Shown: positions 27,001-33,000 of the stretch, piece by piece | How the letters are laid out: every line of letters begins with the position of its first letter | How positions within the stretch are numbered: the stretch's first letter is position 1 | NCBI GenBank assembly: GCA_035631875.1 | Contig: DASQHX010000013.1 | Location: 1 to 64,000 of the forward strand | Source of the DNA: Nitrosopumilaceae archaeon | GTDB taxonomy: Archaea > Thermoproteota > Nitrososphaeria > Nitrososphaerales > Nitrosopumilaceae | Direction of reading: 5' to 3' | Length of the DNA stretch: 64,000 bases | Position numbers: made by a program

Positions 27001-30000
27001 AATGTGGTCTTTTGCAGATGAAATTCATAAATTCCTAGGAAACAGGCCAAAGATGTTTCCTGGATTTATTGGAGGCCATTGCGTTATTCCAAATCTTGAT
27101 CTAATCCAAGATGATACCTTAAATCTCATAAAAGAGATAAATTTAGATTATTCCAAAATACTCAAAAAACGTCAAAAATAGAAAAAATATCTAAAATCTC
27201 ACACAAAAGGGTGCAGGTACCTAAATACGATAAAAAGTTTAACGCCCTTTATTACACTAAACAGACAGGAGCCTTTCTTCTCAATTTGGCTGACGACCTC
27301 AAAAGTGTCTAGAGGGCCAATCCTTTTTTTATTTTAAAAATTAACCTAAACACGCTTGAAGTTTGGCATCATCTTTTGTCTTATGGATAGGTAAACCACT
27401 GCTACTGCAACAAAAATAATTATCATACTATACGAAAATGGAAATTCTGGAATTGATGTACATGTATTGATTGGAGCTGTACCTTGAATGGTATTTCCCG
27501 TGATACTGGAACCACAACCTTCGTTAATTGTGCCAGAGTTGGAGATGACTCCTAGGTTGTTATTGATGATGCCAGAGTTGGTGATGATACCAGAATTGTT
27601 GATGGTGCCACCTGGATTATTATCAATAATTACTCCGGCGTGGTTGATGATGGTGCCAGCATTTTCTATAGTACCAAAGTTGTAGAAGGTGCCGGGGTTG
27701 TAGATTGTGCCAGAGTTGTTGATGGTACCGGAGGCGATGTTATAGATGATATGGTTGTTATTTATGGTACCAGAGTTAGTCATGGTACCGCCATTGGTTA
27801 TTGTGCCGCCGTTGTTGAAGCTACCAGAGTTTGTAAAGATACCCGAGTTGGTGATAGTGCCACCTGGATTATGAAATATGGTACCAAGGTTGGAGATGGT
27901 GCCAGTGTTTGTGATGGCGCCAGAATTGGCGATGTGAGCAAAGTGAGAGTTGGTTATGGTACCAGAGTTGTATATGGGACCGCTGTTATTGATGGCACCT
28001 GAATTGGTGATGGTGCCACTATTAGTAATGCTTGCACTGGTGGTGACGCTGGCTGAACCAGCAAGGTTTTGAATGTTGCCAGAGTTTGACAGGGTACCAC
28101 CAGAGTTGATGGTGATTGTACCTCCATTAGTTGTAAGGGTACTTCCAAGTTCAATGGCAAGCGAGTCTCCGTTATTTAGCGTCAGAGAAATGTTTGTAAC
28201 TGTACATATGTGTCCAATTGAGTCCCAGCTTGGACTACCGGAAGGTAGAGACAGACATGATGCTTGGTCCTTAATGTCATAGCTTACAGCAAAAGCATCA
28301 TGATTAGAAAATCCAATTAGAGCAATTGTTGTAATTACAAAAATAGCCACAATACCAGACGATGAATCCTTTAATCCTAAACCCAAATCTGCCATTTCAT
28401 TGATCTTAAGAATATAAAAAATGATCTTACTTTTTGGAAATAAGTAGAATAAACCTTCAAAATTCTAAACACAATACTGTGAATCCTGTAAGGCTCACAA
28501 CAAAACTTTTCAAATTTATTTTAAGAATTATTTTTTCTAAAATCGTAGGATTACCTCCAGCGTTTGATCTTTTTAAAGTCAAAGCTTATCGTACTGTCAT
28601 GGTTTGGTGAGGACTCTTCTAACTTGTCTATCTTTTTTTGTCTCTCTTTTGAAATTTTGTCCTCTTTTTGCTTTTCTTGTCTAGCAAAGATTTTTTTTAC
28701 AGTTGACCATTTTTCTTTTTTCTTGTCACATTTAAAACATCGCCAGGTGGTGTGATCATTTTCAGTCCCACAGTGGGGACACTTCCATATTGAAAATTCA
28801 TCAGGTATTGTCATATCAAAATGACTTCCACCAAATCTCTGACGACTTTTTATGTATCATCTGTCCAATCCAGTTATAGTTAAATGCATGAACTGCATCA
28901 TCAGGCCTTGAAGTGTCATGGACATATCTCATATATTCCTGGCCTGTTAAGCTCAATTTTATCATCTCACCTTCTACTGCCTCAAAGTGATCTATTATCC
29001 AGGACACTTTATCAAAATCAGCAGCAGGAATTATGAATTTAGGAAATGCATAATTTCCATACACATATGGATGGTCTATCATGTCTTTTAGTCTGTCAAT
29101 TGAATATGTCCTGTCAATGATGTATCTGTTCTCTCGGTCTAGTCTTTCAGTCTCACTATCTTTTGGTAATGGCATGGCAGGCCTTGCAATGTATGCTATT
29201 TTTGTACATCTATTAGCAAACGTTGTCTCTACTTTTTGAGCTTGCCTTGAACCACCGCCAGCATCTATTGTAATGTGATCAGCTTCGTATGCATTACATA
29301 AATCAATGAATCTGTCTGCCTGTTTTTCCACATCTGGCTCGTCCATCTTTTCTATATGCAAGACCTTGAAGATAGGAGCTTCAGGAACCACACACTGGGT
29401 TATCAGAGGTATGGTAAATGAAACATTTCCTCCACCCCAATCTGCAGATGCATATACTTTACCATCTTCATGATCAACATCTTCTGGTCTTGTAAATGAT
29501 GAATCCTTGTCAAACAATTTCATCATTGATTCCTTTGAGAATGGTCTACTCTGTCCTTTTACAAAATTAGCCAGTACATGTTTTTGAAACCATGTAGAGG
29601 TATAGTTTTCCCTTTTCCATTCTATGCTATGCTCCTCTGATATGTGGTATTTTTCACAATCCTTTTTTAATAATGGTATGTTTGGAAACATTTCCTGTGT
29701 TAGCTTGTAGCCATGGCGCTGCAAATTCTGGGGAGCTTTTGCAATCCAGGTGCCATCAAGCAAATCCACTAGATAGTCCCCCCAGACTAGACCTTGTTTA
29801 TCAAATTCTAAATGATTCCTCCAGTCTTTTCTTTTGAAATGATACTCCATCTGATTGGTAGATAGCCAGAACTTGTGGTGCAAACTTCCTACTTCCCCGC
29901 CAATTCCCATAAATACGGTCCTCCCCTGCGTCCATGCTTGCGATTCTCTTGCCTTTTCATATGCCCCCAAGTCAAGGTTCTGCACCTCATCAAAGACTAG

Positions 30001-33000
30001 CAGATCAGCTGATTTTCCTTCAATGTGGTGCATCTGGTTGGCATCTGTTACAAGCGATGTAGAGGATTCAGTCCGAAATTCCACTCGTGATACTGCACCC
30101 TTGGAATTTTCCCCGCCTTTGATGGTATCAAATATTTCCGGGTTGTCAGGGTGAAGTATAGAGCCCCTGTATTTGTCACTAGAAAATGATCTTAGAGACT
30201 CGTCTTCAAATGTGACATAGACTCCTTTCTTGCGCAGTTGTGTGCCATAGTAAGCTAGTAGACCTCCACCAAATGTTGTCTTGCCTAATTGTCTTGCTAT
30301 ACAATACATTTGCCACGGGGATTCGTCACGATAAGGCGTGTGCCACATTGGTAGATATTTTAGAACATTGGCATGACCTTCTATTTTTTTTCTAAATTTT
30401 AAATTCCACTCTAGATATGGAATCTCAAACTTTGAAAAATCAGAGAGTTGCATTTCTGACTTTGCAAGAGCTCTACGTAGGTTCTTTCTCATTGCCATTT
30501 TCCTTTTTTTCCAGATCTAGTAGAGAGGCAATTACAGGACCAGAATCATGTAGATCATTAATGTCCTTTATGGTCTTTTTTATCTCTGAAATTATCTTTA
30601 ATTCCTCAGAAGGGTTTTTACAATTCTTACGCATCTCAAATAATCTTTCAAGTATAGTTTCTAGTGTATCCAAAGTAATAACCGTATTTGATAAAAATTT
30701 CTGTTTTATGATATGGTCTAATCTTTGTTTGTTTAGTCCAAGTTTGCTTTTGATTCTGCGAAATGTTCTATCAGTCATATCGTATCCTCTTTTTGATAAT
30801 TCCTCTAGTGATTCTTTTTCAGAGAAATTAAAAGATACAAAATATCTTACTGCTTTAAGTACATCCGGATTCCTTATGTACCAGCTTTGTTTTTTTCTTT
30901 GTTGAGTTTCAATGACTGATGTCATGATCAAGATTTGGTTTTATGATACTAAAGCATTATTATTCTCTATAGAGAATTGAAAATCTCTATAGAGAATCAA
31001 AATGTTAATCTACTTGTTTGACGTAAAACTACGACTCGAAAGAAAAAATCAATTGCAAAAGAATTGGCAGGACAGTTTTTACGAATAAAAATTGTCCTCA
31101 TCTGGACTGTTTAATGTTTTTAATATTTTTTTGAAAAATCATTTGTAGAATAAAATACAAAATAAATTTTATCATGGAATAAAATCCTAAAAATTAAAAC
31201 GCAAAAATTAATTTCAATTTTTTAAAAATTAATCAAAACACGTTTACAGTATACTAGAAAACAATTAGATTCAGAGTGTAGCAGTATTACATTTATTCTA
31301 GATTAGCATTATAGATATTGATGAAACTAGACCTTTTAATCATCACAGGTATAGTAATCATGTTTGCAATATCATTACCTGCTGCATATTCTGAAATGCA
31401 TGCATCTCAAAATAAAATCACTCTAGTGGTAAAATATTCTGATCATACCAGAATTGGATACTCTTTTTTCATAAATGCCAAAGTTTTCTATACAAATCAA
31501 AACCCTGGAGCAAAGTTTGACCAATACTATGGTTTTATTTCTAATGCCAAAATAACAGCCAAGATTTTAGATCCTAATGGGGTGCAAGTAAAGTCATTTT
31601 CAGGACTGACAGATAATCATGGCTATTATTATCAAACCTTTAGAATTGCTGACAACACTCGTCTAGGTAAATATTCTGTTGTTGTATATGCACAATCAGG
31701 AGATTCCACAGACAGTAAAAAGCTAGTACTGTTCATACAGCACAAACCATACTAAATAAAAAAACCAATTAACAATTGGTTAAGATGACTGATTTTTTTC
31801 TTGTCAGTGTCTAGGATTTCTACAACATGTTGTAGTTCTTTGAGCTGGCAACAACTGTCATTTCAGTTAGTTCATTTGTCAGATTCAAGAATTTCAATCC
31901 CTTTTCAGTTGGCCTGTAAACTTGGGTACCTTCTTCATATGCCAGCAGGTCGTTTTGCTGTAAATATTTCAGGTATTCTATAACCTGTGCATACGATAGA
32001 TATGCCTTGTACATTATCTTTGTTTTTGAAGCCCCTGTTCTTGCCGAGTCTAAGATCATTGCAGTGATATCTGATCTACTTCTATATTTCATTAGATTGA
32101 TCTATCGCATCCGCATATAAAAATAATCGGGTGGAATGTTATGGAATAATGTTCTGTTTTGTGGCTGGCTGTTCTCTCATGATATGAAAAACCAGGATCA
32201 CTCTACACCTAATATCCTTCCAGTCTTTGCATCTATTCTGACTTTACGAAGCACAGGTGGCATGCCAGTTGACACTGTCACTATCCATGTTCTGCCTTTA
32301 GACTCTGCCTTTCTTACCATTACATTAGATTGTTGTTGTCCAAAAAATTTTTCCGCTAGTTGTTCTACTGCATCTTTGTTGATACTAAATACACCATTGA
32401 TATTATCAGCACTTGTCAAGATATGCTTTGTGTCATATTCGTATAGAAGATCAATTCGTATCAGAGTATGCTAGTCTTAATATTATTTCTGTCAGTCTTG
32501 CATGTTACTCACAACTAATAATCCTGCCAGTCTTAGATTCGATTGAAAGTGTTCTATGTGACTGTTGATTAAATGAGCTTACAAATACTTTGACAACCCA
32601 AATCTCATTTTTTAGGGTCTTGTCCATGATCTCAATAGAGGAGTAGCTTTGTCTGAAGAATTTTGTTGCAATGTCACTAACTTTGTCAGCATCAATACTC
32701 TCTGAAAGCATACCTTACCCATTTGTTATAGAAGATTGTACTATATACGGAATGTGGAAGGTCCCTTCATCTTTTGAGGCTAGATAAAGGTCTGATTATA
32801 TCATATTAAAATAAATTCCAACCTCAGATCACACGTCAAAATCCACTGAAAAGATCAAGACAAGATCGCAACAACACTCGGTTAATTTTTTAGGTAACAT
32901 TGTTCAGTATTATTGTTGCGCTATCTTTTTTAATTACAAAACTTTGCCTAGTATAGTTAATCAGATTATATGAGAACCCCAAACCCCTCATATGATCTGT

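What a model noticed while it worked through the whole genome (the two positions that open the first line are those of the whole stretch)
28816..30925. Solitary terminase (TerS-TerL) cassettes as a recurrent two-gene mobile unit
An intact small plus large terminase pair (g01841, g01840) sits among host genes with no portal, capsid or integrase. Such pairs recur at about 15 unrelated chromosomal sites in Nitrosopumilaceae at 23-32% identity, often squeezed between housekeeping genes, so they behave as a capsid-less mobile unit rather than one decayed provirus.
Evidence so far: PHROG terminase large subunit E 3e-25; Walker A/B and nuclease Asp residues present. Profile finds 16 of 112 other family genomes, strong hits only in this family. 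In 17 loci read, an HTH-type 130-180 aa ORF precedes terL and flanks are mostly host orthologues such as cdvC, argH, pyrG. In a genus relative the pair lies in a clean 4.0-kb insertion between two genes that are contiguous here (C9:453092-453095), with no integrase or repeats. PHROG scans of 132 unannotated own proteins gave no portal or capsid domain; none in pfam.tsv.
(Added by a program. Inside this text positions count along the whole contig: contig position 1 is position 1 of the stretch shown here. "Call 12" and the like, gene names such as g00115 and contig names such as C1 are that model's own, and its searches are not shown. The text may have been shortened before it was handed on; [...] marks where a part breaks off. 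The agent that wrote the report below was given it as the finding of a first reader that could run no searches.)

Follow-up and report, generated by a model that had tools for sequence, protein, structure and literature searches.

The report
Capsid-less terminase cassettes of nitrifying archaea
About one in eight genomes of this family of ammonia-oxidising archaea carries a virus DNA-packaging enzyme gene with almost never a virus shell gene, and conserved DNA and protein signals suggest these cassettes likely load themselves and neighbouring host DNA into the empty heads of other viruses, although the copy in this window could still be a recent viral leftover.

Summary
The window has an intact terS-like gene and terL, plus a third virus-derived zinc-finger gene; no portal or capsid profile hits the genome. 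TerL occurs in 53 of 401 family genomes; two matching portal profiles hit 2 and 3 of 401. Copies come from at least three TerL lineages at 20 or more sites, keep their catalytic residues (120 of 121 in the largest clade) and show dN/dS 0.05-0.20. New here: a 10-bp tandem repeat (AAATGG-N4-AAATGG) upstream of one TerS family marks the cassette's left edge (15 of 18), and a short Trp-bearing C-terminal tail is shared by 32 of 35 solitary copies and by viruses with one portal family, but by 0 of 40 terminases beside other portals. Best reading (0.45): a minimal helper-dependent packaging parasite. Not shown: packaging, helper, insertion route. The window's own copy lacks the repeat, is 64% identical to a 40-kb virus and lies in a variable accessory region, so it is the weakest example. 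One copy is published as an 'enigmatic relic' (NitKor-E1); this scan noted the phenomenon before on another genome (e1-6507796).

The parts
28816..30498 (-). terL, large terminase, 560 aa, ATPase plus RNase H-like nuclease, all catalytic residues present
   Evidence: 64% identical to TerL of IMG/VR record G201 (L031)
30473..30925 (-). terS-like ORF, 150 aa (TTG start at 30931 would give 152 aa), overlaps the terL start by 26 nt
   Evidence: homologous to the ORF before terL in viruses; no significant family hit; TerS identity inferred
28551..28814 (-). 87-aa zinc-ribbon ORF starting 1 nt after the terL stop; third gene of the unit
   Evidence: Pfam Zn_ribbon_RanBP E 6e-5, below cut-off; homologues after terL in L065, L075 and in virus G202
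28819..28857 (-). codons of the short Trp-bearing C-terminal tail of TerL (ends SEIWWKSF), predicted portal-docking segment
   Evidence: tail survey; role inferred from PMC13595956 passage
30936..30963 (.). near-palindromic 28-nt element just upstream of terS, 27 of 28 identical to an element in viruses G406/G407
   Evidence: blastn E 1e-5, pattern scan; function unknown
30955..31004 (.). inverted repeat holding two copies of the palindrome TCTCTATAGAGA (30964-30975, 30984-30995); candidate TerS or regulator site of this copy
   Evidence: 24-nt arms, 88%; the 12-mer occurs only here in G000 and in no other locus fetched
27346..28395 (-). downstream flank: host accessory surface protein with a PEF-type C-terminal tail repeated many times in the genome; not part of the cassette
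31318..31755 (+). upstream flank: host accessory MG2-domain protein; not part of the cassette

Best explanation
These terS-terL cassettes are virus-derived gene pairs that persist intact at many chromosomal sites without portal or capsid genes, and they likely act as minimal packaging parasites: TerS would bind the cassette's own upstream site, TerL would cut there and dock by its C-terminal tail on the empty head of an infecting helper virus, and a headful of DNA starting at the cassette and running into the downstream chromosome would be carried to a new cell. Shown: viral origin, persistence without shell genes, intact catalytic sites, purifying selection, a conserved left-edge repeat tied to one TerS family, and a tail type tied to one viral portal family (that of G201, G202, G406, G407). 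Inferred: that the repeat is a packaging-initiation site, that the tail docks on that portal, that spread within a species is by homologous recombination of the transduced fragment and to new sites by rare illegitimate capture of its fixed left end, and that diverting helper heads also protects the host population. The window's own copy is read as a recent, independent recruit from a G201-like virus with its own candidate site (the double palindrome); for this copy alone, parasite and leftover are about equally likely.
For: TerL profile A7 hits 53 of 401 family genomes; portal profiles of the nearest viruses hit 2 of 401 (A9) and 3 of 401, one strong (A11). PMC13573593 reports five proviruses in 1,078 Nitrosopumilaceae genomes (passage). 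120 of 121 clade-S proteins keep seven catalytic residues (these rows were chosen as best full-length hits). terL dN/dS 0.05-0.20 in 10 cellular pairs with a value, against 0.14-0.18 in 4 viral pairs; same-site pairs 0.20 (L091/L185) and 0.16 (L195/L196). L091/L185 terL dS 0.115 against 0.56 for the flanking pyrG, and L192/L193 carry different cassettes (dS 2.4) between flanks at dS about 0.5: exchange in place. 82% identical TerLs sit at different sites in different genera (L086, L104). Unseeded Gibbs search finds AAATGG-N4-AAATGG: total 309 bits against 180-195 (4 shuffles) and 211-244 (4 random host sets); above 11 bits in 15 of 18 training loci, 6 of 8 loci that pair the same TerS family with a distant TerL clade, 0 of 14 cassettes with other TerS, 1 of 58 viral loci. 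Conservation starts sharply at the first A, one orientation, and in L104 lies 33 bp from the host stop codon. Trp within the last 13 residues: 32 of 35 portal-less family copies with 1.5 kb or more of flank, 0 of 40 TerLs beside A2- or A9-type genes. Viruses G201/G202 (kin of the window TerL) and G406/G407 (kin of clade S; TerLs only about 27% alike) all have this tail and share the A11 portal (E 1e-118 or better) and protease-capsid families. An A11 portal with its protease-capsid gene lies in family genome G283. [quoted passage not shown]
Against: No packaging, cutting, binding, expression or helper is shown. The window's copy lacks the repeat (0.7 bits) and nests among proteins on 39-42-kb contigs that probably also encode the A11 portal (equal contig lengths; tree). 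Viruses G406-G408 nest inside clade S (91/96) and monophyly of the cellular copies is neither shown nor rejected (p-AU 0.155), so dN/dS between copies at different sites may record time spent in viruses, and the tail may simply be inherited. The one virus with the same TerS family (L138) lacks the repeat (best 10.7 bits); 9 exact IMG/VR matches to an 18-mer form lie beside no terminase. The repeat could be an autoregulatory operator. 7 of the 48 loci read have a broken or deleted terL (L102, L103, L172, L188, L189, L190, L196) and one has an aberrant tail (L186). No target duplication, att pair or conserved right end, so arrival at new sites is unexplained. TerL is easier to detect than portals; the A2-type gene and the A3 capsid were not searched family-wide; A10 (0 of 401) had no positive control and is a capsid by position only. 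The Trp-tail rule was defined after seeing the sequences.
Confidence: 0.45

Rival explanations
1. Relic model: each cassette is a fresh fragment captured from a tailed virus in which terS-terL lies apart from the head genes (possibly at a genome end), and it then decays; no function in the chromosome.
For: Krupovic et al. read NitKor-E1 this way (PMC6563490 passage). At least three TerL lineages give solitary copies, each with viral kin. The window copy is 64% identical to virus G201, whose record begins 43 bp before its terS, and carries a third viral gene. In G202, G406 and G407 terL is far from the portal. 7 of 48 loci are broken; further small remnants in G015, G268, G378.
Against: Portal genes of the same viruses are 18 to 26 times rarer in the same 401 genomes. 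Same-site pairs still show dN/dS 0.16-0.20. The upstream repeat is shared by cassettes whose TerLs are about 25-30% alike and is missing from 57 of 58 viral loci. None of 37 IMG/VR records found with profile A7 is closer than 53% to the first clade-S row, while cellular copies at different sites reach 82%.
Confidence: 0.25
2. Host-kept anti-viral decoy: the pair is expressed on infection, occupies or mis-fills helper heads or cuts DNA to abort the infection, and moves passively like other defence genes in variable islands.
For: Neighbours include Fic, PIN, ParE, AbiEi, HEPN, GmrSD, NucS and restriction-modification genes. Patchy presence, gain and loss, allele replacement in place. The tail would be needed for head binding here too.
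Against: 10 of 18 loci with both flanks measurable span 4.5 kb or less between host orthologues, outside defence islands. A decoy would not obviously need a conserved cis repeat 143-292 nt upstream of the conserved terS Gly-Arg-Pro codons. PADLOC was not searched.
Confidence: 0.18
3. Eroded satellites: the mobile unit is a larger integrase-bearing, capsid-less element (like NitKor-E1) that uses terS-terL to enter helper heads; the two-gene copies are what is left after the integrase and replication genes are lost.
For: Integrase genes lie near terL in L094, L105 (with an MCM helicase and a methylase) and L199; NitKor-E1 has a tyrosine integrase (PMC6563490 passage). It would explain arrival at new sites.
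Against: 45 of 48 loci show no integrase among the ORFs scanned (197 of 269 non-host ORFs within 4.5 kb, one per cluster, a few left out; many contigs are short). Four insertions of 2.8-4.1 kb lie between genes adjacent in G000 with no integrase remnant (L086, L091, L093, L104). The integrase-bearing loci L094, L105, L199 lack the repeat.
Confidence: 0.12

Closest known systems
NitKor-E1, cryptic integrated element of Ca. Nitrosopumilus koreensis AR1 (Krupovic et al. 2019, PMC6563490; passages read)
   Same: TerS directly before TerL, no other tailed-virus gene. The protein that its source names NKOR_00575 (P0108) is a member of clade S.
   Different: Published as a single enigmatic case and likely relic inside an integrase element. 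Here: 53 of 401 genomes, mostly without integrase, with a shared cis repeat and tail type. The window's TerL is from another clade (27% to that copy).
PICIs / SaPIs and PICI-like tycheposons, VEIMEs (PMC6687093, 10.1101/2020.12.28.424599, PMC9618062; passages)
   Same: No shell genes of their own; redirect packaging with their own TerS and pac site; can transduce host DNA.
   Different: They carry an integrase and usually replication genes, excise, and use the helper's TerL. These cassettes bring their own TerL, and most show no integrase, replicon or att sites.
Lateral transduction by prophages (PMC6687093 passage)
   Same: Terminase starts at a true pac site in the chromosome and packages headfuls into adjacent host DNA.
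   Different: There the prophage supplies its own heads; here the heads would come from an unrelated infecting virus.
Gene transfer agents and GTA-like thaumarchaeal loci Nvie-Pro1, NCAV2-Pro1 (PMC6563490 passage)
   Same: Virus-derived packaging genes kept in the chromosome without integrase or replication genes.
   Different: Those loci keep portal, capsid and tail genes; none was found anywhere in G000 and only 2 of 53 TerL-positive genomes had a portal hit.
Tailed viruses of the G201/G202/G406/G407 group (IMG/VR records; unnamed)
   Same: Source of the window's three genes (G201 TerL 64%; zinc finger in G202); same tail type.
   Different: They are 40-98-kb genomes with portal, protease-capsid, tail and (G201, G406, G407) MCM genes.

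Membership tests
Large terminase (Caudoviricetes TerL) | N-terminal ASCE ATPase with Walker A/B plus C-terminal RNase H-like nuclease | tested here: met
Small terminase | small HTH plus helical oligomerisation protein encoded directly before terL | tested here: inconclusive
   position met in 39 of 42 loci by script; A5 model is three short helices plus a long hairpin; no significant Foldseek or specific VIA match
Provirus of a tailed virus | portal, capsid and tail genes at the locus or elsewhere in the genome | tested here: not met
   six profiles and 1,382 viral ORFs against G000: no structural gene; G000 is 99.99% complete in 13 contigs
PICI / phage satellite | integrase and att sites | tested here: not met
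   none beside the window cassette; integrase near 3 of 48 loci
PICI / phage satellite | own replication module | tested here: not met
   none in the window unit; MCM only in L105
PICI / phage satellite | packaging into helper capsids from an own pac/cos site | not testable with these tools
   candidate repeat and tail-portal link are indirect
Gene transfer agent | host-encoded head and tail genes, possibly at several loci | tested here: not met
   for G000; for 401 genomes (A2- and A3-type genes searched only in G000 and fetched loci)
Insertion sequence / transposon | transposase, terminal inverted repeats, target duplication | tested here: not met
   no shared or flanking repeats in five loci or between left and right flanks of 42 loci; empty site only 88% alike, so a duplication under about 8 bp cannot be excluded
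Cryptic integrated element (Krupovic 2019) | integrase as the conserved gene | tested here: not met
   definition from passage; no integrase at the window locus
Described anti-phage defence system | match to curated defence models and protection on infection | not tested
   PADLOC not searched; protection needs experiments

The most novel reading that the evidence does not exclude
A two-gene packaging parasite with no integrase, replicon or shell: its own TerS, TerL and pac-like repeat commandeer the heads of one virus family, turning lytic infections into one-directional transduction of the host chromosome. It would be the smallest helper-dependent virus satellite, a trans-acting lateral-transduction switch in about 12% of Nitrosopumilaceae genomes, and a gene pool that swaps terminases with the helper viruses themselves.
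Probability: 0.4. Interest if true: 0.88.

Novelty: new variant of a known kind. Interest (0 to 1): 0.7.

Why it matters
Krupovic et al. wrote in 2019 that terminase had not been identified in non-viral mobile elements and left the one archaeal case as enigmatic. The data here turn that case into a family-wide pattern with two concrete handles, a 20-bp DNA repeat and a short protein tail, plus a candidate helper virus group, so the question can be tested directly. If the parasite model holds, it gives a route of chromosomal gene transfer for abundant nitrifiers in which proviruses are rare, and it warns that a lone terL is not a marker of a provirus in these genomes.

Tried and rejected
PDB sequence searches with TerL, A2 and A3 gave nothing useful. 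Single-protein IMG/VR scan found nothing; alignments did. PHROG and Pfam miss the viruses' head proteins; A3 was called a capsid and A9 a portal from ESM Atlas look-alikes, A11 a portal from member P0185 carrying PF06074 and weak cross-hits to A9 members; A2, A4 and A10 rest on gene position only, and A2/A9 and A3/A10 profiles did not align. First motif search returned the Gly-Arg-Pro codons of terS and was redone without coding sequence. Empty allele of the window site: not found in 10 genus genomes or as a joint in three runs of one study. No RNA holder listed. Transposon-type ends: none. The 31-nt direct repeat 27332-27362/31220-31250 was rejected as an att pair: its left copy is the 3' end of a PEF-tail gene repeated through the genome. 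A helper-specific late promoter was tested with the AATACAT word: not enriched in the viruses (0 of 23, 2 of 28, 0 of 56, 1 of 67). The first tree run timed out; trees are quick LG+G4 trees with long branches, a careful one on 44 rows. A viral scan with the TerS alignment A5 could not be run (too little conservation). Complex prediction of tail with portal was not available, so docking is untested. Literature: nine searches found no paper describing solitary terS-terL cassettes beyond PMC6563490; the phrases orphan, solitary, stand-alone or domesticated terminase scored 0 in all 30 papers listed; the library lacks most subscription papers, and supplements of PMC6563490 (att table, gene lists) were not read and may bear on NitKor-E1's ends.
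Full report
What is in the window. On the minus strand lie three overlapping or abutting ORFs: a 150-aa ORF (30473-30925), terL (28816-30498, 560 aa) and an 87-aa zinc-ribbon ORF (28551-28814). TerL matches phrog_675 at E 3.8e-25, folds with pLDDT 86 and matches Sf6, T4, D6E and HK97 large terminases (best E 2e-15); the ATPase and nuclease residues are present. The small ORF has no significant family hit but is homologous to the ORF before terL in IMG/VR viruses; I call it TerS by position. 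The flanks are accessory genes in a stretch that is not syntenic in any of 10 genus relatives (G075 among them is unpublished, the result does not depend on it). The assembly is sound as far as one run shows.

Its viral kin. Alignment-based scans of IMG/VR gave 34 loci for the window-type TerL and 37 for clade S. Most have a conserved gene right after terL followed by head genes; A3 is an HK97-type capsid and A9 a portal by ESM Atlas look-alikes. PHROG and Pfam see none of these head proteins, so I rebuilt the negative with profiles from the viruses themselves: no hit in G000 for A2, A3, A4, A9, A10 or the A11-type portal, and of 1,382 viral ORFs only terL, terS and genes such as helicases, methylases and an integrase match elsewhere. 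The window TerL is 64% identical to that of record G201 (40.3 kb, 88% complete) and its clade is sister to that of G202 (40.4 kb, terminal repeats, complete). Five clade-mates lie on contigs of the same lengths as A11 portals, which I read as further viral genomes (inference). The zinc-finger gene is also in G202 and follows terL in two metagenome contigs, one with host-like flanks. So this copy is a three-gene piece of a G201-like virus.

The family-wide pattern. Profile A7 finds terL in 53 of 401 family genomes (the count includes G000, remnants, and five unpublished genomes G093, G210, G232, G262, G264; without them 48; no locus analysis rests on them). In a class-wide sample, 1 of 70 genomes of other families had a weak hit. 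The portal of the viruses sister to clade S hits 2 of the same 401, the A11 portal 3 of 401 with one strong hit, and the putative capsid A10 0 of 401 without a positive control. A 2026 survey reports five proviruses in 1,078 genomes of this family (PMC13573593 passage). I read flanks of 48 loci in 44 of the 53 genomes (left out: the five unpublished, three small remnants, G325). One has a portal beside terL (L092), one genome has an A11 portal and capsid on another contig (G283), three have an integrase in the stretch read. A small same-strand ORF precedes terL in 39 of 42 loci by script. Nearest host orthologues define more than 20 different neighbourhoods, among them cdvC, argH, pyrG, prs, purP, guaB, amoA and fen1. 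Of 18 loci with both flanks measurable, 10 span 4.5 kb or less; four lie between genes that are adjacent in G000. Some sites are shared by several genomes, and several neighbours are defence or toxin-antitoxin genes.

Lineages and selection. Solitary copies come from at least three TerL clades about 25-30% alike: the window's clade, a roughly 600-aa clade S, and a roughly 525-aa clade; L094 is a fourth, from portal-linked viruses. Clade S is large: 500 proteins at E<=1e-30, the best 120 listed, mostly on short contigs of unknown context, one named NKOR_00575 by its source. The portal-adjacent viruses form a separate clade (100/100), but viruses G406-G408 fall inside clade S in the careful tree, and holding the cellular copies together is not rejected nor shown (p-AU 0.155). 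120 of 121 clade-S rows keep seven catalytic residues (full-length hits, so biased to intact). terL dN/dS is 0.05-0.20 in the 10 cellular pairs with a value and 0.14-0.18 in 4 viral pairs. Only same-site pairs speak to selection in the chromosome: 0.20 and 0.16. dS shows exchange in place: 0.115 for terL against 0.56 for pyrG in L091/L185, and 2.4 against about 0.5 in L192/L193. Seven of 48 loci are broken or deleted, so copies also decay.

A cis element. An unseeded Gibbs search of the non-coding region upstream of A5-family terS genes gives AAATGG-N4-AAATGG followed by an A/T tract (309 bits; controls 180-195 and 211-244). It scores above 11 bits in 15 of 18 training loci and 1 of 2 held-out, in 6 of 8 loci where the same TerS family is paired with the distant 525-aa TerL, in 0 of 14 cassettes with other TerS (the window included), in 1 of 58 viral loci, and above 12 bits in 14 of 1,337 host upstream windows. 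It has one orientation, no conservation on its left, lies 143-292 nt before the conserved Gly-Arg-Pro codons, and often 33-144 bp from the neighbouring ORF. So it travels with the TerS family and marks the left edge; the right edge is ragged (24 bp to several kb). A 10-bp period and a fixed end fit a TerS-bound packaging site (inference from headful packaging as described in PMC13595956); an operator is the alternative. Against: the one virus with this TerS family lacks it. A promoter-like word AATACAT, picked by eye, occurs in 12 of 24 such cassettes against 39 of 1,191 host genes, and before terS of virus G407.

A protein element. TerLs beside A2- or A9-type genes never have Trp in their last 13 residues (0 of 40); portal-less family copies with enough flank do in 32 of 35 (exceptions L094, L186, L188; two bacterial rows dropped), as do 117 of 119 clade-S proteins of unknown context. 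The viruses with this tail whose records I read whole or nearly so, G201, G202, G406 and G407, share one portal family and one protease-capsid family although their TerLs belong to two distant clades; G408 (40% complete) showed no portal. Since TerL docks on the portal by its C-terminus in T3, lambda, SPP1 and P22, the solitary enzymes look matched to that virus group, which also occurs in a family genome (G283; binning caveat). The rule was set after seeing the data, kin are not independent, and docking was not tested.

Mechanism. The simplest model that uses all parts is a minimal packaging parasite: own TerS, own site, own TerL, borrowed heads, headful DNA running from the left edge into the chromosome, as in lateral transduction (PMC6687093) but in trans. 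It explains terminase without portal, the fixed left and ragged right ends, exchange in place, and the tail. It does not explain arrival at new sites, for which no integrase, duplication or second end was found. I give it 0.45, repeated capture and decay 0.25, a host-kept decoy 0.18, erosion of integrase satellites 0.12. For the window's copy alone, leftover and parasite are about even.

Comparison and verdict. NitKor-E1 is the published instance, called enigmatic and a likely relic (PMC6563490 passages). PICIs, tycheposons, VEIMEs and EPIPs carry TerS with integrases (passages); GTAs carry heads. The cassettes fail those membership tests but would work like a satellite. Papers were seen as listings and passages only; none was read whole and no supplement was opened. 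Nine searches found no description of the family-wide pattern, the repeat or the tail link. This scan noted a solitary archaeal pair under selection on another genome (e1-6507796) and several integrase-bearing capsid-less terminase islands in other phyla; these are unchecked notes and not counted as support. Verdict: real, new variant of helper-dependent element, mechanism inferred; interest 0.70.

Noticed in passing
L089:11976-18372, L102:11132-17474, L188:10288-16636, L013:3-479, L234:5428-11769: A divergent nurA-herA-mre11-rad50 operon (24-29% to G000's) stands at the site of the usual one; G049, G169 and G001 show only this type, G013 and G060 only the usual type. In four genomes it directly follows terS-terL or a terL remnant, in G001 there is no terL: possible xenologous replacement of the DNA-end resection machinery carried in downstream of a cassette.
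   Followed up: partly
window 27346-27463 and many places on C5, C6, C7, C8, C10, C13: A family of surface-protein genes shares a near-identical PEF-type C-terminal tail and a downstream non-coding element (about 80% nt identity, 18 or more places; a similar element at 28480-28545); may act as recombination handles in the variable regions.
   Followed up: partly
window 30936-30963; L116:12006-12033; L090:11389: Near-palindrome ATACTAA-N4-TTAGTAT shared between the window's terS upstream region, viruses G406/G407 and the terS upstream region of L090.
   Followed up: partly
L115:12232-12555, L116:12062-12385: Viruses G406/G407 carry a separate, almost invariant 107-aa ORF after terL that matches the TerL profile (E 2e-8 or better; dN 0): a duplicated terminase fragment.
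   Followed up: no
L086 (after 10897), L104:10949-11209, L105:9027-9449: A second Cys-rich small ORF family follows terL in cassettes of two different TerL clades.
   Followed up: no
G201, G202, G406, G407 (L109-L112, L238-L251), L254: Unnamed group of 40-98-kb tailed viruses with a portal and protease-capsid fusion invisible to Pfam and PHROG, MCM helicase in three, and a relative inside family genome G283.
   Followed up: partly
L199:3318-5316 and L094:11778-13768: Integrase islands with terS-terL also carry a multiubiquitin, E2 and ThiF (E1) gene set (homologues in L094 by clustering).
   Followed up: no
L197:2977-6504: A cassette sits about 1.3 kb from amoA.
   Followed up: no
window 24494-25132 and 25786-26280: Two paralogous secreted proteins with Asp/Lys/Ala-rich repeats.
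   Followed up: no
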